Shown in pieces: positions 56,834 to 64,000 of a DNA stretch of 64,000 bases; the stretch's first letter is position 1, and every line of letters begins with the position of its first letter. A program made the translations under genes and the position numbers. The DNA is taken from IMG/VR virus record IMGVR_UViG_3300028888_000093, positions 27,345 through 91,344 of that record. One strand, given 5' to 3'. The stretch is from a virus (Duplodnaviria; Caudoviricetes). The notes under the pieces were generated by a model that did no database searches, had not been told where the DNA came from, and worked only from the letters and a program-made list of their open reading frames with translations.

Positions 56834-57865
56834 ATGATTAGAGTATACAACATATTGACAAGCTTATTCGGGCAATCCAAACAGGGTGTGTTCGATAAAG
56901 GTGTGACACAATACCAATTCAACTGTCCAAATTGTGCGGAAGAAAACGGTTGTGTTGATTACAAGTACAATCTTGAAGTGTCTTTAAGTCTTGGGCAATA
57001 TCATTGTTGGTCATGCGGCATATCTGGCCGAATATCGAAACTGGTAAGGCAATATGGTGGAAAACAAACATATGACGAGTACATTCAAATAATAAACGAA
57101 ATAAGGGAAACAAAATATTACGACCTTGAACTTTTCAAGGATAATTGCGACATGTTTGAAGAAACTTTGTTAAAGCTTCCGAAAACTTTCCAAACAATCA
57201 ACCTTGAGTCTTGTAAAAACAGACAACTTGTTGACTACCTGAACAAAAGAAAGATAGACCAAACAATGATTGACTATTATAACATAGGAGTTACAGGCTG
57301 GGAAGGAGAGGAGTACACGTGGCGCAACCGAATCATAATACCGTCCTATGACAATAGTGGGGAACTTAATTATTTCATCGGAAGAACATACAAGCAAAAT
57401 GACAAACGGATAAAATACAGGAATTGTGATTTTGATAAAAAAAATATAATATTGCATGAAGACAAGATAAATTGGGACTGCGACATATATTTGGTTGAAG
57501 GAGCGTTTGACTGCATTTACTATTACAATTGTATCGGTTTGATGGGTAAAATACTTACCAAAGACTCGAAAGTTTTCAAAACAATAAAAGAACTGTCGCA
57601 TGCAAATGTTGTCGTGTGTTTGGATGGGGACACAACAGAAAATGAAATAATTAAAATATATCTGCTATTGGAAAACACAAAAGAGCTGAGGGGTAGGGTA
57701 AGATATATACGAATGGGGAAAGACATAGAATATAAGGATTTTGGAGAACTTTATGAGGCCGAGGGCAAAAACGGGATAATAAGGGCAATTCAAAACCAAA
57801 AACAATATAGTGAACAGGAAATAATCAAAATTAAAAATTTAAATTTCAATCAATATGATTACTAA
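56834..57865 (+). CDS. dnaG: DNA primase (Zn finger + Toprim)
   Basis: CPNC..HCWSC zinc finger, RIIIPS..YFIGR, LVEGAFD, CLDGD, KDFGE. Confidence 0.85.
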   Translation: MIRVYNILTSLFGQSKQGVFDKGVTQYQFNCPNCAEENGCVDYKYNLEVSLSLGQYHCWSCGISGRISKLVRQYGGKQTYDEYIQIINEIRETKYYDLELFKDNCDMFEETLLKLPKTFQTINLESCKNRQLVDYLNKRKIDQTMIDYYNIGVTGWEGEEYTWRNRIIIPSYDNSGELNYFIGRTYKQNDKRIKYRNCDFDKKNIILHEDKINWDCDIYLVEGAFDCIYYYNCIGLMGKILTKDSKVFKTIKELSHANVVVCLDGDTTENEIIKIYLLLENTKELRGRVRYIRMGKDIEYKDFGELYEAEGKNGIIRAIQNQKQYSEQEIIKIKNLNFNQYDY

Positions 57866-58700
57866 AATTATAGCTTGTGCGGACATTCATGTTCCGTCAG
57901 TAAAAGGAATTGACGAGTTGAAGTCGCAAATGAAGAGATTTATCGACAAATGCAAAAAAATCATAAAGGACGAAGACGACCCTTCAAATGTCAGAATTGT
58001 TGTGTGTGGAGATATTTTTCACGCCAAAATTCAAATCACAAATGAATCGATAATGTGTGTCGACTGGTTTTTCAAGGAACTTGACAAGCTTTGCAAGACA
58101 TATATTGTAACTGGAAACCATGATTTGCTAATGAACAATCTTGACAGACTTGATTCAATCAGCCCTCTGTTTGAAATCGGAAACTACAAACAAGTTTGCT
58201 ACTTGGACAAGGATTTGGAGTACAAATCTGGAATCATGGTTGATGATAATGTGGCATGGTGCCTATATTCTTCATTTGATGGGTTTTCAACACCAAATAT
58301 ATTAGTCCATAAAGAAGCAAACAAGTCTAAAGATTTGATATATGTCGGATTGATTCACGGAGATGTCAATGGGGCTATTACAACAACAAATTATGTTACC
58401 GATAATGGTCTTGACCCAGCAGTGTTTGATGGATGTGACTTTGTTATTGCTGGGCATATCCATAAGCGTCAGGAAATAAAGAAAAACGGTATTCCGATTG
58501 TCTATTGCTCCAGCCTTAAACAACAAAACTTCGGAGAATCAGTGTCTGGGCATGGATTCGTACTTTGGGATATTGAGGATAAGGATGATATTACATACAA
58601 GAATGTCGATATCAAAGACAAGGACGGAGGATATTACAAGTTCGAAATCAACAACATCGAAGATATTAACGAAGACAAGGAAGAATTAATTAATTATTAA
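57855..58700 (+). CDS. sbcD: SbcD/Mre11/gp47-like metallophosphoesterase nuclease
   Basis: ADIH, GDIFH, GNHD, HG, GHIH motifs and SL.QQNFGE. Confidence 0.85.
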   Translation: MITKIIACADIHVPSVKGIDELKSQMKRFIDKCKKIIKDEDDPSNVRIVVCGDIFHAKIQITNESIMCVDWFFKELDKLCKTYIVTGNHDLLMNNLDRLDSISPLFEIGNYKQVCYLDKDLEYKSGIMVDDNVAWCLYSSFDGFSTPNILVHKEANKSKDLIYVGLIHGDVNGAITTTNYVTDNGLDPAVFDGCDFVIAGHIHKRQEIKKNGIPIVYCSSLKQQNFGESVSGHGFVLWDIEDKDDITYKNVDIKDKDGGYYKFEINNIEDINEDKEELINY

Positions 58701-58720: not shown

Positions 58721-59404
58721 ATGAATGATTTTAAAAAATTTGCAGTAAGCAATAATGTAAACGGTAACACACTGGACCGTTATAGTAAAACTTTGAACAG
58801 CATTATCAGCCCGACAATCATTGAGGAACGACAGATGAACGCTGTTACCATCGATGTTTTTTCAGCATTGATTAGAGAGAGAATTATTTTCCTCGGAACG
58901 GCAATTGACGATGATGTTGCAAATATAGTTAATTCACAGTTGATGTATTTGAATTCTTTGGATAGCGAAACACCAATAAAGCTCTTCATAAATTCTCCAG
59001 GAGGTGTAATTACCTGTGGATTAGCGATTTACGACGTACTGAATTGGGTTGACTGTGGTGTTGAAACATATGTGATGGGTATGGCAGCATCTATGGGTTC
59101 TGTATTGTCATCATCTGGAATGAAAGGACATAGATATGCATTGAAGAACAGTAGAATCATGATTCACCAGCCTATGATGGGAATTCCTCCTGGAACCCAG
59201 GAATCAGATATTGCAATTGCTTATAATGAAATTCGCAAGGACAAAGAATTATTGCTCGGAATCCTTTCTGAGAATTGTGGGAAGACGATTGAAGAGTTGA
59301 GAGCTGATGCTGACCGTGACCACTGGCTTACACCAGCTGAAGCACTTCCTGGTGTATATGGCGAATTCGGGCTTATTGATGAAATTATCACCAAGAAAAA
59401 ATAA
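58721..59404 (+). CDS. clpP: ATP-dependent Clp protease proteolytic subunit
   Basis: DVFSALIRERIIFL, INSPGG, GMAASMG (Ser), IMIHQP (His), DRD (Asp). Confidence 0.95.
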   Translation: MNDFKKFAVSNNVNGNTLDRYSKTLNSIISPTIIEERQMNAVTIDVFSALIRERIIFLGTAIDDDVANIVNSQLMYLNSLDSETPIKLFINSPGGVITCGLAIYDVLNWVDCGVETYVMGMAASMGSVLSSSGMKGHRYALKNSRIMIHQPMMGIPPGTQESDIAIAYNEIRKDKELLLGILSENCGKTIEELRADADRDHWLTPAEALPGVYGEFGLIDEIITKKK

Positions 59405-60011: not shown

Positions 60012-61610
60012 ATGATAAAAATTATTGTTGCGGTAGGTAATTATGTCCCAGAAAAAGGGTTTCCGATTGGAAAAAACGGTGGCATGGCGTGGGATTTTCC
60101 AGAAGATTTAAAATGGTTCAGAAAAACAACTGAACACAATATTGTTGTGATGGGTAGAAACACGTATAAAGCAATTGGTGAGAAACCACTACCAAATAGA
60201 GACAATTATATTGTTTCAAATTCAATGACAGAAACACCAGAAGGATTTTCTGGAATTTTACATAGTATTGACGACATTGTAAAGTTACACGAAAATACGG
60301 TATTTTACGATGTTTATGTTATTGGTGGTGCAGAGTTATATAAGTCTGTTATTGACGCTGATATAGTAGATGAAGTTTTAATTGATTTTATTGATGTTGA
60401 AGTTCCAGATGCAGACACATTTTTCCAGCCTTTGGACTTGAATAAGTGGAAGATGGATGAAGATGGTATAAGATTAAGCGATAAATGCACCGTCAATACA
60501 TTTAAACATGTAAAATTTTTTAATGATGTTGATGAACAATATTTTAATTTGGTGCAAGACATTATTAAAAACGGAGAAACAAAAGAAACACGTGCTGGAA
60601 TTACAAGGTCTGTTTTTGGGAGACAACTACGTTTCAACCTTAAAAATGGCTTGCCGTTGCTAACAACAAAAAAAGTTTACACAAATGGTATCATTCATGA
60701 ACTTATTTGGTTCCTTAAAGGCGATACGAATATTAAATATCTTGTTGACAACAATGTGCATATATGGGATGATGACGCATACAGATATTATCTTGAGCTT
60801 GTTGAAAAAAACAACGAAGTCTTAAAATGTGATGACGCACCATTGTTGAATGCTCATTATTTTGGGCCTATCACAAAGGAAGAGTTCTTGAAAGCTGTCA
60901 TTGAAGAAAAAGACTGTTGGTTATACTTGGATAGATTGGCTGGTTATATATCATACTACCCAAACAACTATTATATTCACTATAAATTTGGCGACCTTGG
61001 TCCAGTTTATGGTGAACAATGGAGAAACTGGTACGGCGTTGACCAAATAAAGAAAGTTATTGAAATATTAAGAACAAATCCAGATGACAGAAGAATGGTC
61101 GTCTCTGCTTGGAACGTTAAAGAATTGGATAAAATGGCTCTTCCTCCTTGTCATTATTCATTTCAATTTTATACAAAAAAAATGGATATTTTAGAAAGAA
61201 GGAACTGGGCAGACGAACATAACTTTGATTGCTGGGATGAAAAATCACTCGATAAAAACAATGTTCCGTCAAGAAAGTTGAGCTGTATGTTTCATATACG
61301 CAGTAATGATGTAGGTTGTGGAACGAGTTTTAATTGGGTTTCATATGCAATATTAACACATATGGTTGCACAATGCTGTAATATGGAGGTTGATGAACTT
61401 ATTTATGATGTGGGAGACGCACACATATATGAAAATCATATTGAACAATTACATGAACAATTAAAGAGAAACCCACATAAATATGCGTTACCGAAACTTG
61501 AATTGAATCCAAATGTAAAAGAAATTGATGATTTTAGACCATATGATATTAAAATAGTTGGATATAAATCATACCCAGCAATAAAATTGCCATTAAATGT
61601 CGGATTATGA
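60012..61610 (+). CDS. thyA: Bifunctional dihydrofolate reductase-thymidylate synthase
   Basis: DHFR motifs IGKNG.MAW..PEDL, VVMGRNTY, PLPNR, VIGG, ADTFF fused in frame to ThyA motifs PLLTTKK, DLGPVYG.QWR, MALPPCH, RSND..FN, GDAHIY.NH. Confidence 0.93.
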   Translation: MIKIIVAVGNYVPEKGFPIGKNGGMAWDFPEDLKWFRKTTEHNIVVMGRNTYKAIGEKPLPNRDNYIVSNSMTETPEGFSGILHSIDDIVKLHENTVFYDVYVIGGAELYKSVIDADIVDEVLIDFIDVEVPDADTFFQPLDLNKWKMDEDGIRLSDKCTVNTFKHVKFFNDVDEQYFNLVQDIIKNGETKETRAGITRSVFGRQLRFNLKNGLPLLTTKKVYTNGIIHELIWFLKGDTNIKYLVDNNVHIWDDDAYRYYLELVEKNNEVLKCDDAPLLNAHYFGPITKEEFLKAVIEEKDCWLYLDRLAGYISYYPNNYYIHYKFGDLGPVYGEQWRNWYGVDQIKKVIEILRTNPDDRRMVVSAWNVKELDKMALPPCHYSFQFYTKKMDILERRNWADEHNFDCWDEKSLDKNNVPSRKLSCMFHIRSNDVGCGTSFNWVSYAILTHMVAQCCNMEVDELIYDVGDAHIYENHIEQLHEQLKRNPHKYALPKLELNPNVKEIDDFRPYDIKIVGYKSYPAIKLPLNVGL

Positions 61611-62756: not shown

Positions 62757-62921
62757 ATGTTGGAATCATATATGAAGAATATTAACAGGCAATACATAAA
62801 CACACTCCCACAAGGAGATGTGTTGGATTTTGCACATGTTTCCAGTAGTAATTATTCAATAGCGTTTGAACCGAAACAGGAACAAAAAAGAGGGATGAGG
62901 GATATTGGAGTTTTAATATGA
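62757..62921 (+). CDS. Putative leader peptide (54 aa) upstream of the tRNA region
   Basis: ATG 62757; stop lies ~40 nt before a terminator whose 5' arm is complementary to the last codons. Confidence 0.4.
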   Translation: MLESYMKNINRQYINTLPQGDVLDFAHVSSSNYSIAFEPKQEQKRGMRDIGVLI

Positions 62922-62962
62922 AATAAGGTGAGCACATAGGTTTCTAACCACAACATATTCCC

Positions 62963-63003
62963 AACCTCTGAAAAGTTTCCGAACAAATCAGAGGTTTTTT
63001 TTT
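62963..63003 (+). terminator. Rho-independent terminator/attenuator
   Basis: aacctctga...tcagaggtt + long T run. Confidence 0.75.
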
Positions 63004-63023
63004 ATGTTTAAATCTATGTAAAC

Positions 63024-63084
63024 TGTCATTTTGACATATAAGCATGACAAAATGTCATAAATTTAGTTTGGCATGATGTTTGCA
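63024..63084 (+). promoter_or_regulatory. Sigma-54 (-24/-12) promoter with two upstream TGWCA-N3-TGWCA boxes
   Basis: TGGCA-tgatgt-TTGCA at 63069-63084 with exact spacing; TGTCAtttTGACA 63024-63036 and TGACAaaaTGTCA 63045-63057. Confidence 0.7.
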
Positions 63085-63102
63085 TAAATAAAAAAACGAC
63101 AT

Positions 63103-63176
63103 GGTGCCGTTAGCTCAGTTGGTAGAGCGCATGTCTGTGGAACATGAGGTCGTTGGTTCAAACCCAACACGGCACC
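63103..63176 (+). tRNA. trnH: tRNA-His (GUG), encoded G-1:C73, no encoded CCA
   Basis: Full cloverleaf: gtgccgt/acggcac, gctc/gagc, catgt-ctGTGga-acatg, gttgg-ttcaaac-ccaac. Confidence 0.95.
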
Positions 63177-63232
63177 CGAAAAAAAGTTTGGAAGTTTCAA
63201 AAAAGATTTGTAATCTTACAAACACAAACGAG

Positions 63233-63244
63233 AGTTCTTTGAAA
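63233..63244 (+). promoter_or_regulatory. boxA-like antitermination element
   Basis: agttctttgaaa just downstream of a promoter-like TTTG-N20-TAATCTTA; resembles rRNA-leader boxA. Confidence 0.5.
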
Positions 63245-63274
63245 AAATGAAAATATAAAGTGATTGCTGGTGTT

Positions 63275-63686
63275 AATAGTGACACTACATGCATAGGCGA
63301 GAAATCCCTATGTAGAATCTCCCAAATTCGGTGGAAGGCCTTTTCCTATTGATAAGACAAGAAATGTGTATAAGAAAGGAACACAACACTAAACAATAAC
63401 GTGTAAGGACAATACCGAGCGAAAGTGATATAAAGACTTAGCCAAAGAAACTATATATCATCAATCGTGTAGAGACTGAACGGGAGATACCTAAATTGGA
63501 ATTGAATTCCCTATTAAGCATTGTTAGGTGATGCTGTCCCGAAAGGATGAAACAAGATGCAATTTCTTGAATAGGATTCTTGCAAGAATTTCAATATGGT
63601 AATGTCAGTCAAAGTCACAATAAGCATTTGTAAGAACTGTGGAGTTGAAACCACATTAAAAAACGTGTTGAGAATGCTTGACACTG
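63275..63686 (+). ncRNA. Group I intron (412 nt, no ORF) in the non-coding leader of a tRNA
   Basis: P1 ggtgtU/Gacact; P2; P3 tctccc(63318)/gggaga(63482); P4 ttcggt/accgag; P6-P6a; P7 gactga(63474)/tcagtc(63605); omega-G 63686; P10 atag/ctat. Confidence 0.85.
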
Positions 63687-63700
63687 CTATCACTTTACTT

Positions 63701-63847
63701 GCGCCCGTAACTCAGCTGGTAGAGTACATCCCTTTATACAGTTTGACATTTCTGCAAAATGTTTCAGATGCTGAAAGGAAAATTCAAGTTCGATTCTTGG
63801 AGCATCTGCTAAGGATGGAGTCGTGGGTTCGAATCCCACCGAGCGCA
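63701..63847 (+). tRNA. trnK: Intron-containing tRNA, most likely Lys (UUU); 74-nt insert at about 63736-63809
   Basis: gcgcccg/cgagcgc acceptor (one C-A mismatch), actc/gagt D stem, catcc/ggatg anticodon stem, gtggg-ttcgaat-cccac T arm; removing 74 nt gives loop CT-TTT-AA; A73 and U20. Confidence 0.75.
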
Positions 63848-63874
63848 CAATAATAACTTAAAAATTATATTAAT

Positions 63875-64000
63875 ATGGAAGACGGGGCAAAAACTAAAAG
63901 AATATCTTAAAAAAGATTTTGATTGGAATAATCATAAGAAGTATAGGAAATATTTTGATGACTGGTATTCAAATTTAACCGAAAATCAACTACTGTACTA
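63875..64000 (+). pseudogene. Small frameshifted or mis-sequenced phage gene, runs off the window
   Basis: ATG frame stops after 11 codons, but the +1 frame reads KLKEYLKKDFDWNNHKKYRKYFDDWYSNLTENQLLY. Confidence 0.4.

What the first reader, a model, noticed from the sequence alone, without database searches (positions are those of the whole stretch)
63701..63847. tRNA-Lys whose anticodon loop is interrupted by a nested tRNA-like domain (tRNA within a tRNA)
Seen: a 74-nt insert splits the anticodon. It is far too short for a group I/II intron and I see no clear bulge-helix-bulge. Its 3' 45 nt fold as an 8-bp acceptor-like stem (cagatgct 63765-63772 / agcatctg 63801-63808) stacked on a canonical T arm (tcaag-TTCGATT-cttgg), joined by a GG-containing linker (gaaaggaaaat) like a stemless D loop; its 5' part is a separate hairpin (acattt/aaatgt). 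The mimic's discriminator (C63809) falls exactly at the 3' junction needed to rebuild a UUU anticodon. Established: RNase P and RNase Z recognise acceptor + T-arm minihelices, and tRNA-Lys(UUU) is the PrrC anticodon-nuclease target. Inference: an intron type excised with help from tRNA-processing nucleases plus an RNA ligase, possibly storing a nuclease-resistant pre-tRNA or releasing a tRNA-like decoy.
Basis: partly seen in the sequence, partly recalled or inferred. Interest (0 to 1): 0.9.

Follow-up and report, generated by a model that had tools for sequence, protein, structure and literature searches.

The report
tRNA-shaped mobile intron in phage tRNA-Lys
A jumbo phage from the sheep gut has a lysine tRNA gene split inside its anticodon by a 74-base mobile insert that is shaped like the top half of an unprocessed tRNA. 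This is a little-described kind of phage tRNA intron that probably relies on ordinary tRNA-trimming enzymes plus an RNA ligase, but its removal has not been shown.

Summary
Window 63701-63847 is a tRNA-Lys(UUU) gene. An intron-less allele with identical exons in a 361-kb relative fixes the insert at exactly 63736-63809, between U35 and U36.

It is not an assembly artefact and not a group I, group II or BHB intron. It belongs to a mobile family. I defined 11 members in five phage lineages, all with the same plan:
- a 25-32 nt 5' module that starts N-U-A and carries a small hairpin;
- an 8-bp stem stacked on a T arm, which covaries fully;
- one final C, followed directly by the 3' exon.

New here: the "8 bp + C" copies the ends of these phages' own tRNA genes, which have a -1:73 pair and encode only C74. 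Relatives whose inserts end in CCA have CCA-encoding tRNA genes. So the 3' cut probably uses the tRNA 3'-end endonuclease. Cleavage after C74 is published for a chloroplast tRNase Z fraction.

The 5' cut lies about 29 nt upstream of where RNase P would cut and remains unexplained. The complete relative encodes an Rnl5-type RNA ligase and a polynucleotide kinase.

Splicing is not shown; the RNA-run contigs carry only the unspliced gene. Two papers briefly mention tRNA-like phage tRNA introns, and this scan met the class before on other DNA.

The parts
63701..63735 (+). tRNA-Lys(UUU) 5' exon: acceptor 63701-07, D arm 63710-25, anticodon-stem 5' strand 63727-31, loop positions 32-35 (63732-35)
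   Evidence: Rfam RF00005 alignment; identical to the intron-less allele L004:13570-13604
63736..63809 (+). 74-nt insert (intron) between U35 and U36
   Evidence: Only register compatible with the intron-less alleles in L004 and L160
63736..63764 (+). 5' module of the intron, 29 nt: starts AUACAG, weak hairpin 63745-51/63757-63 (-3.0 kcal/mol), U-rich end
   Evidence: RNAfold of the module. Siblings have modules of 25-32 nt; U2-A3 is invariant in all 11 members
63765..63772 (+). 5' strand of the 8-bp acceptor-like stem (first base is the equivalent of position -1)
   Evidence: Pairs perfectly with 63801-63808. In the nine members tabulated all 8 positions covary, 72 of 72 cells are standard pairs
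63773..63783 (+). 11-nt purine-rich linker that replaces the D and anticodon arms
   Evidence: Sequence; linkers are 11-79 nt in relatives, and a full cloverleaf in the Met intron
63784..63800 (+). T-arm mimic: 5-bp stem (one U-G pair) and loop UUCGAUU
   Evidence: T stems covary, 43 of 45 cells paired
63801..63808 (+). 3' strand of the acceptor-like stem (last base is the equivalent of position 73)
63809..63809 (+). Single unpaired C, last intron base; copy of the C74 that this phage's tRNA genes encode
   Evidence: C in all 11 family members. C74 followed by a non-C in 19/20 and 21/23 of the lineage's own tRNA genes
63810..63848 (+). tRNA-Lys 3' exon: U36 A37 A38, anticodon-stem 3' strand 63813-17, variable loop, T arm 63823-39, acceptor 63840-46, A73 at 63847, encoded C74 at 63848
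   Evidence: Rfam alignment; identical to L004
63877..64000 (+). Start of a 279-aa DUF559/HNH-like endonuclease ORF that runs off the window; free-standing, present or absent among relatives
   Evidence: Full ORF in L003:5139-5975. Pfam DUF559 1.5e-9; PHROG HNH endonuclease 2.8e-12. Absent in G001 and in a run X3 contig. Present next to an intron-less Lys in L160, so not strictly linked to the intron

Best explanation
The insert is a mobile, protein-dependent tRNA intron of the tRNA-like class. It carries its own processing handles. Its 3' two-thirds imitate the top half of one of this phage's own unprocessed tRNAs: a 7-bp acceptor stem plus a -1:73 pair, a T arm, then C74. The endonuclease that trims the phage's tRNA 3' ends after C74 (an RNase Z of the Thermotoga/chloroplast kind is the best candidate) would therefore cut exactly at the intron/3'-exon junction. 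Its 5' third (N-U-A, small hairpin, A/U-rich spacer) marks the 5' junction for a second endonuclease, which is unknown; an RNase E-type enzyme that cuts two bases before a U is a candidate. The two tRNA halves stay held together by the tRNA body and are sealed by an RNA ligase such as the Rnl5-type enzyme encoded by the complete relative. Shown: the exact boundaries, the mobility, the conserved and covarying architecture, the match to the phage's own tRNA gene ends, and the presence of ligase and kinase genes in the lineage. Inferred: every enzymatic step, and that splicing happens at all.
For: (1) The insert lies exactly between U35 and U36, with exons 100% identical to two intron-less alleles. 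(2) Presence/absence turnover: the window's phage has this insert type in Lys and Tyr, while its 361-kb relative has it in Arg(CCU) and Met(CAU) and has plain Lys and Tyr genes. (3) Eleven members in five phage lineages share the plan. In the nine tabulated, every acceptor-like position covaries (72/72 cells paired). U-G/G-U wobble pairs, which would be A-C mismatches on the other strand, point to selection on the RNA of the tRNA strand. (4) Applying one rule (cut after the single C; cut before N-U-A) gives canonical 7-nt loops with U33 and a purine at 37 in every member examined, including G37 for Pro. (5) The minihelix plus C occurs only inside anticodon loops, not elsewhere in 361 kb plus 64 kb. 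(6) The lineage's own tRNA genes encode C74 but not C75 or A76 (23/24 and 27/29), and position -1 pairs with 73 in 79%. Arrays whose inserts end in one C are C74-only (L267 11/12, L247 11/13, L222 7/7), while arrays whose nested elements end in CCA encode CCA (L232 12/12, L212 2/2, L188 9/9). (7) Published: RNase P, tRNase Z and the CCA-adding enzyme accept acceptor/T-arm minihelices (PMC3714273). A spinach chloroplast tRNase Z fraction cleaves after C74, many chloroplast tRNA genes encode C74, and Thermotoga tRNase Z cleaves after CCA (PMC3161902). (8) The relative G001 encodes an RNA ligase (Naegleria Rnl5-type, PDB 5cot, E 2.5e-33), a polynucleotide-kinase-like protein and a CCA-adding-type nucleotidyltransferase. 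(9) U at +2 of the 5' junction is invariant, which is the dominant in vivo RNase E signature (PMC5222698 abstract).
Against: No spliced read or contig was found. The RNA-library contig that spans the gene is unspliced and could be DNA or precursor. The 5' junction has no demonstrated nuclease; RNase P would cut about 29 nt too far downstream, and the U+2 match may simply reflect common descent of the inserts. C74 is reported as the strongest inhibitor of ordinary bacterial tRNase Z (PMC3161902), so the model needs a host enzyme of the other kind, and the host is unknown. The short bacterial form of tRNase Z is reported not to cut micro-pre-tRNA complexes in vitro (PMC2691602). The ligase and kinase are seen only in the relative, because the window's own record is 25% complete. 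They have an obvious alternative job, repair of anticodon-nuclease damage. The phage could tolerate a dead tRNA gene, because the host supplies tRNA-Lys.
Confidence: 0.45

Rival explanations
1. Unspliced selfish DNA. The insert is a small mobile element that lands in tRNA anticodon loops and simply inactivates a dispensable phage tRNA gene. Its hairpins serve DNA-level mobility, and the interrupted gene is a young pseudogene.
For: Rapid presence/absence turnover between close relatives. A free-standing DUF559/HNH endonuclease gene lies next door. Only the unspliced form was seen in run contigs. Host tRNAs could cover the loss.
Against: The architecture is kept by compensatory changes, including wobble pairs, on the tRNA strand, and a canonical T loop is kept in 10 of 11 members; this is RNA-level selection. 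The boundaries always rebuild a perfect loop. The tail copies the phage's own tRNA 3' ends. Target sequences differ at every site, unlike IS200/IS605-type elements. Interrupted genes keep clean cloverleaves, and in the array as held they are the only Lys and Tyr genes. The endonuclease ORF also sits beside an intron-less Lys.
Confidence: 0.25
2. The product that matters is the released tRNA-like minihelix, not the tRNA. RNase P and the 3' endonuclease free a 45-nt mini-tRNA, which may be CCA-tailed. It acts as a decoy or titrant for tRNA-targeting host defences or tRNA enzymes, and the host tRNA gene is only a carrier.
For: The minihelix has both 5' and 3' processing signals of a pre-tRNA. The 5' module is not needed for such a release. 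The phage lineage has a CCA-adding-type enzyme.
Against: Only the shape is conserved, not the stem or loop sequence, which fits a processing handle better than a specific decoy. It does not explain why the elements sit only in anticodon loops at positions 35/36 or 36/37 with loop-restoring boundaries.
Confidence: 0.15
3. A new compact self-cleaving or self-splicing RNA. The T loop and the A-rich, partly GNRA-like hairpin loop of the 5' module organise a fold that cuts at both junctions. The ends are healed and sealed by the phage kinase and ligase or by host RtcB.
For: Two classic tertiary-contact modules lie in 74 nt. Several hairpin loops in the family follow an A-R-N-A-A-A pattern. A polynucleotide kinase, needed only for 5'-OH ends, is encoded in the lineage.
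Against: No Rfam ribozyme family matches, even at E up to 10. Apart from U2-A3, the T loop and the final C, almost nothing is conserved in sequence. Pairing between module and linker is no better than in shuffles. The window member's hairpin loop does not follow the pattern.
Confidence: 0.07
4. Assembly chimera of two tRNA genes.
For: None beyond the presence of two T arms 39 nt apart.
Against: The identical structure is found in two assemblies and in contigs of two further runs. The family recurs with a fixed plan.
Confidence: 0.01

Closest known systems
'Enigmatic' introns of Lak megaphage tRNAs (Devoto et al. 2019, PMC6784885, Fig. 4) and the one-line note in a 2026 jumbo-phage survey (PMC13037316)
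   Same: Short inserts in phage tRNA anticodon loops. Present or absent between related phages. One (tRNA-Thr) is itself predicted to be a tRNA. No ribozyme family match.
   Different: Those papers give no anatomy, splice rule or mechanism. Here the insert is bipartite (5' module plus reduced minihelix), ends in a single C, and that end is shown to copy the phage's own C74-only tRNA genes.
Minihelix or tRNA-shaped inserts that run from their first base to a CCA tail
   Same: An acceptor/T-arm mimic nested at anticodon positions 35/36 or 36/37. L212 interrupts a tRNA-Lys at the same U35|U36 site.
   Different: They have no 5' module, so an RNase P cut would coincide with their 5' junction. They have a CCA tail and sit in arrays that encode CCA. 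The window's type has a 25-32 nt 5' module and a C-only tail.
Group I introns in bacterial and phage tRNA anticodon loops (reviewed in PMC3984707)
   Same: Mobile, in the anticodon loop, often with homing endonucleases nearby.
   Different: At 74 nt there is no P3-P9 core, no U-G pair at the 5' junction and no terminal G. A true group I intron lies 50 nt upstream in the same window, but its guide sequence does not fit these junctions.
Archaeal and eukaryal tRNA introns cut by the splicing endonuclease at a bulge-helix-bulge (PMC4090602)
   Same: Protein-dependent: two endonucleolytic cuts followed by ligation.
   Different: No BHB can be drawn. The junctions are at 35/36, not 37/38. There is no EndA homologue in either phage record. 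The tRNAs are bacterial in type (class II Tyr, encoded G-1 in His).
tRNase Z processing after C74 in chloroplasts and after CCA in Thermotoga (PMC3161902); guide-RNA-directed cleavage by tRNase ZL (PMC2691602)
   Same: An endonuclease that reads an acceptor/T-arm stack and cuts just past C74 or CCA, whatever follows.
   Different: Known only for 3'-end maturation or as an engineered tool, not as one step of intron removal.

Membership tests
tRNA (RF00005), isotype Lys(UUU) | Full cloverleaf match above the curated score once the insert is skipped | tested here: met
   50.1 bits against a gathering score of 29, model positions 1-71
tRNA (RF00005), isotype Lys(UUU) | Anticodon UUU after removal of the insert | tested here: met
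   The intron-less alleles in L004 and L160 have identical exons and a Lys(UUU) loop
Group I intron (RF00028) | Conserved catalytic core P3-P9, roughly 200 nt or more | tested here: not met
   No match inside 63736-63809 at E up to 10; the only match is at 63268-63551. The insert is 74 nt.
Group I intron (RF00028) | 5' exon ends in a U paired to G; intron ends in G | tested here: not met
   The last exon base is U, A or G across the family, and the intron always ends in C
Group II intron | Six-domain structure with domain V, several hundred nt | tested here: not met
   No Rfam match; 74 nt
BHB intron (archaeal/eukaryal) | Two 3-nt bulges separated by a 4-bp helix, carrying both junctions | tested here: not met
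   By inspection and the folds, the junctions lie at a three-way junction. The bases next to the 5' junction have no complement next to the 3' junction.
BHB intron (archaeal/eukaryal) | Splicing endonuclease (PF01974) available | tested here: not met
   No match in G000 or the complete G001, while the control rings in four archaea. The host was not testable.
tRNA-like introns of phage tRNAs (Lak type) | Short insert in the anticodon loop of a phage tRNA, absent from the same gene in relatives | tested here: met
tRNA-like introns of phage tRNAs (Lak type) | Insert folds as a tRNA or tRNA top half | tested here: met
   8-bp stem plus T arm with full covariation. The Met sibling is a full cloverleaf.
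tRNA-like introns of phage tRNAs (Lak type) | Removed from the RNA (spliced) | tested here: inconclusive
   Only contigs could be laid. The unspliced form is present and no junction is listed.
IS200/IS605-type miniature elements | Insertion next to one fixed target tetranucleotide; subterminal hairpins at both ends | tested here: not met
   The bases before the insert differ at every site
Known small self-cleaving ribozymes (hammerhead, twister, hatchet, pistol, HDV-like) | Match to the family's covariance model | tested here: not met
   None at E up to 10 in 62900-64000

The most novel reading that the evidence does not exclude
Bacteriophages have a protein-dependent tRNA splicing route that needs no dedicated splicing endonuclease. 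The intron brings a copy of a pre-tRNA end, so the cell's tRNA 3'-end endonuclease makes the 3' cut after a C74 mimic. A conserved N-U-A plus hairpin module directs a general endonuclease to the 5' cut. A phage Rnl5-type ligase reseals the anticodon loop. This would be a third way of splicing tRNAs, besides self-splicing introns and BHB introns.
Probability: 0.35. Interest if true: 0.85.

Novelty: new variant of a known kind. Interest (0 to 1): 0.66.

Why it matters
Bacterial and phage tRNA introns are textbook self-splicing group I ribozymes, and protein-dependent tRNA splicing is thought to be confined to archaea and eukaryotes. These inserts are too small to be ribozymes of any known kind. 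Yet they are kept in shape by selection, and in the arrays held they sit in the only Lys and Tyr genes of a 360-kb class phage.

This report turns an 'enigmatic' observation into explicit, testable rules. The 3' junction lies right after a C74 mimic on an 8-bp plus T-arm stack. The tail type matches the phage's own tRNA gene ends. The 5' junction lies before N-U-A plus a hairpin.

If the rules hold, they would reveal a new splicing pathway built from housekeeping enzymes. They would also show tRNA-finding programs how to call these genes, which are currently missed or mis-typed: ARAGORN calls this Lys gene 'Ser'. And they would offer a compact protein-guided RNA excision module.

Tried and rejected
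1. RNA evidence. One run search and one lay of four runs. All runs are kept as contigs. The Lys gene appears only unspliced and no joint across L003 4583-4656 is listed. Contigs cannot show absence, so this says nothing either way.

2. Lys-specific pattern scan of IMG/VR (intron start plus T loop). It gave 105 matches (the window's own gene aside), none a relative of this insert.

3. Exact 3'-exon scans of IMG/VR and JGI metagenomes. They found only the three or four contigs of this lineage. That yielded one new intron-less haplotype but no divergent copies of the Lys intron itself.

4. blastn of the window region and of the Met and Tyr genes against 50,697 phage records. Only exons match; there are no intron homologues.

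5. MAFFT/RNAalifold on the inserts. They are misaligned, with no consensus. A covariance model built from the Lys minihelix alone was too sequence-specific to find its own siblings. I replaced it with a hand-written structural scan and hand-anchored pair tables.

6. Pseudoknot between the 5' module and the linker: no better than shuffles.

7. Trans action of the neighbouring group I ribozyme. Its guide sequence pairs with its own 5' exon and not with the junctions of the insert. Sibling inserts lie far from any group I element.

8. RNase P as maker of the 5' junction. No helix starts at the first intron base; the acceptor-like stem starts at base 30.

9. Exonuclease trimming back to the anticodon loop. 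It cannot give the exact, site-specific ends (4 or 5 loop bases) that are needed.

10. Linking the DUF559 endonuclease to the intron. It is contradicted by L160, which has the endonuclease next to an intron-less Lys.

11. RtcB, Rnl1, RNase Z-type metallo-beta-lactamase and EndA were sought in both phage records and not found. The Rnl1 control rang nowhere, so that search is uninformative.

12. An automatic search for outer anticodon stems around all nested elements was too noisy. Family members were therefore parsed by hand.

Full report
WHAT IS THERE

The window is the last 64 kb of a 91-kb IMG/VR virus record, rated 25% complete. Rfam's tRNA model matches 63701-63847 over its whole length (50.1 bits) with one large insertion in the anticodon loop. 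ARAGORN finds the gene only when introns are allowed, and it mis-types it as 'Ser(GCU)' because the splice register is ambiguous from this sequence alone.

EXACT BOUNDARIES

A 361,445-bp relative (G001; DHFR-TS 86% identical; rated complete) has the same tRNA array. Its tRNA-Lys(UUU) is uninterrupted, and its exons are identical base for base to the window's. Only one insert is compatible with this: 63736-63809, 74 nt, between U35 and U36. A third haplotype from another metagenome (L160) is also intron-less.

The interrupted form is real. It is present in a second assembly (L002 = L162). It is also in a 2796-nt contig of a sheep-gut RNA library and in a slightly divergent contig of a further run.

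A MOBILE FAMILY IN THIS LINEAGE

A 27-tRNA array starts with the tRNA-His and tRNA-Lys genes at the window's end and continues downstream of it.
- The window's phage also has an interrupted, bacterial-type tRNA-Tyr (77-nt insert, between positions 36 and 37). Its exons match annotated phage tRNA-Tyr genes.
- G001 has plain Lys and Tyr genes. Instead it carries the same kind of insert in Arg(CCU) (74 nt; plain in the window's phage) and in a CAU tRNA (108 nt).
- The four inserts are only about 50-69% identical but share one plan: a 27-29 nt 5' module, an 8-nt strand, a linker of 11-45 nt, a 5-bp T stem with a canonical T loop, the complementary 8-nt strand, one C, then the exon.
- The linker of the Met insert folds into D-like and anticodon-like arms, so that insert contains a whole cloverleaf.
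- Chance does not give this. Shuffled upstream sequence supplies a full 8-bp partner with a probability of 0.002-0.04 per insert.
- A structural scan of G001, the window and L003 finds short-linker minihelices followed by C only inside anticodon loops. The shuffled background is about 0.85 hits per genome.

THE FAMILY ELSEWHERE

Two T loops 38-40 nt apart are a signature of a nested minihelix. At least 40 of these were distinct nested tRNA-like elements. By hand I parsed seven more inserts of the window's bipartite type, in three further large phage contigs:
- L267: Val and Pro;
- L247: Thr, Asn and Lys;
- L222: Phe and Asn.

For the nine members tabulated, all 72 acceptor-like cells are standard pairs, with 3-5 pair types at every position, and 43 of 45 T-stem cells pair. 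Wobble pairs occur in the sense of the tRNA strand. Every insert starts N-U-A (AUACAG in five of the eleven) and ends in C.

One rule is enough: cut before N-U-A and cut after the C. It restores a canonical loop with U33 and a purine at 37 in every case, including G37 in the Pro tRNA.

A second type starts at the first base of the minihelix and ends in CCA. It was seen in L212, where it interrupts a Lys gene at the same U35|U36 site, and in L232.

THE 3' JUNCTION COPIES THE PHAGE'S OWN tRNA ENDS

In this lineage the tRNA genes do not encode CCA, but they almost always encode C74 followed by a non-C (23/24 and 27/29). Position -1 can pair with position 73 in 79% of them, and it follows 73 when 73 is G or C. 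The insert's '8 bp + C' is therefore a 7-bp acceptor stem, a -1:73 pair and C74. That is the top half of one of these phages' unprocessed tRNAs.

The parallel holds across lineages. Arrays that hold C-tailed inserts are C74-only (L267 11/12, L247 11/13, L222 7/7). Arrays that hold CCA-tailed nested elements encode CCA (L232 12/12, L212 2/2, L188 9/9).

Published work gives a candidate activity:
- Minihelices are substrates of RNase P, tRNase Z and the CCA-adding enzyme (PMC3714273).
- A chloroplast tRNase Z fraction cuts after C74 whatever follows, in a system where many tRNA genes encode C74, and Thermotoga tRNase Z cuts after CCA (PMC3161902).

The same source also says that C74 strongly inhibits the common bacterial enzyme. 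The host's enzyme type therefore matters, and it is unknown.

THE 5' JUNCTION IS THE OPEN PROBLEM

The acceptor-like stem starts at intron base 30, so RNase P would leave about 29 extra bases on the 5' exon. No helix begins at the first intron base. Exonuclease trimming could not give the exact ends required.

What is conserved:
- U2-A3;
- a weak hairpin that starts at base 2-4 (-2.6 to -6 kcal/mol), often with an A-rich six-base loop;
- an A/U-rich spacer.

A uridine two bases after the cut is the main in vivo signature of RNase E (PMC5222698), and RNase E can make exact tRNA 3' ends (PMC5291269). I offer it only as a candidate.

ENZYMES

G001 encodes:
- an RNA ligase with an N-terminal OB domain, closest to Naegleria Rnl5 (5cot, E 2.5e-33);
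- two genes away, a polynucleotide-kinase-like P-loop protein (closest to Pnkp1, 4xrp);
- a CCA-adding-type nucleotidyltransferase.

Neither phage record has RtcB, an RNase Z-type fold or a splicing endonuclease. The window itself encodes a calcineurin-type phosphoesterase at 57855-58700, which could heal 3' ends but is generic.

WHAT IT IS NOT

- It is not a group I or group II intron and not any Rfam ribozyme.
- It is not a BHB intron.
- It is not an IS605-type element, because the targets differ at every site.

RNA DATA

Sheep-gut metatranscriptome runs hold 91% and 61% of the sampled words of the region, but only contigs could be laid. The gene is seen unspliced and no joint across the insert is listed. 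This is not evidence against splicing.

LITERATURE AND NOVELTY

Devoto et al. 2019 reported 'enigmatic' introns in Lak phage tRNAs, one of which 'may encode a tRNA', with presence/absence between genomes. A 2026 survey repeats this in one sentence. Neither gives anatomy or mechanism, and my other searches found no paper that proposes one.

Earlier notes of this scan describe the CCA-tailed type in many other phages. They led me to the Lak paper, which I read myself.

The window's member is a bipartite, C-tailed variant. The link between tail type and the array's own gene ends, and the N-U-A rule at the 5' junction, are to my knowledge not in print.

VERDICT

The feature is real and a good find. 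It is best read as a mobile tRNA-like intron whose 3' junction is set by tRNA 3'-end processing. The 5' cut and the splicing itself are unproven.

Noticed in passing
window 63268-63686 (L003 4122-4533): ORF-less group I intron core (Rfam 25.5 bits, E 4e-4; P3, P4 and P7 pair well) between tRNA-His and tRNA-Lys, in neither a tRNA nor a CDS. By eye, the 5' exon end (63269-74) pairs with a guide sequence at 63281-86, and an 8-nt inverted repeat (63257-64 / 63689-96) would bring the flanks together. In the RNA runs this stretch has a summed contig depth of up to 40,000, against about 50 for the flanks and about 8 in a run of unrecorded type. Many length variants are present, so related intron RNAs are abundant in the rumen.
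   Followed up: partly
L003 and G001 arrays; also L267, L247, L222, L084, L143, L005: Whole phage tRNA arrays whose genes encode C74 but not C75 or A76, with position -1 complementary to 73. Other arrays encode full CCA. This suggests two host-dependent modes of 3'-end processing.
   Followed up: partly
L003 7381-7514 and G001 343565-343698: A tRNA body (acceptor, D and T arms; Rfam 42-44 bits) with about 73 nt of AU-rich, non-tRNA-like sequence where the anticodon arm should be. The two phages differ by two substitutions. A shorter paralogue lies just upstream in G001 (343462-343532; ARAGORN calls it 'Stop(tta)'). This is a different kind of insert from the finding.
   Followed up: no
L003 7243-7358; G001 343148-343262: A 116-nt tRNA-like gene with two T arms (the inner one with a canonical T loop) but without the 8-bp plus C plan. 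Its nature is unclear.
   Followed up: no
G001 347967-348086 (L004 21050-21169): A tRNA with a hairpin-only insert of about 30 nt in an enlarged anticodon loop and a long extra arm; no T-arm mimic.
   Followed up: no
window 63877-64000, continuing in L003 5139-5975: A free-standing DUF559 (Vsr-fold)/HNH-like endonuclease gene inside the tRNA array. It is absent in G001 and in a run X3 contig (joint L003 4940 to 5977), and present beside an intron-less Lys in L160.
   Followed up: partly
L160 2713-2783: An extra tRNA-like element with an abnormal anticodon loop sits between the intron-less tRNA-Lys and the endonuclease ORF in the third haplotype. It is absent from the window.
   Followed up: no
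At least 40 distinct elements have an 8-bp stem next to the first T arm, and most are of full tRNA size (linker 40-43 nt). Some may be whole tRNAs nested in other tRNAs; others may be tRNAs followed by 3' fragments. In all but two the next base is C.
   Followed up: partly
window 60012-61610: A fused DHFR-thymidylate synthase (532 aa), an arrangement better known from protists and plants. It is followed by ClpP (58721-59404) and metallophosphoesterase genes.
   Followed up: no
L003 8837-9643: A 268-aa ORF inside the tRNA array with no Pfam or PHROG match.
   Followed up: no
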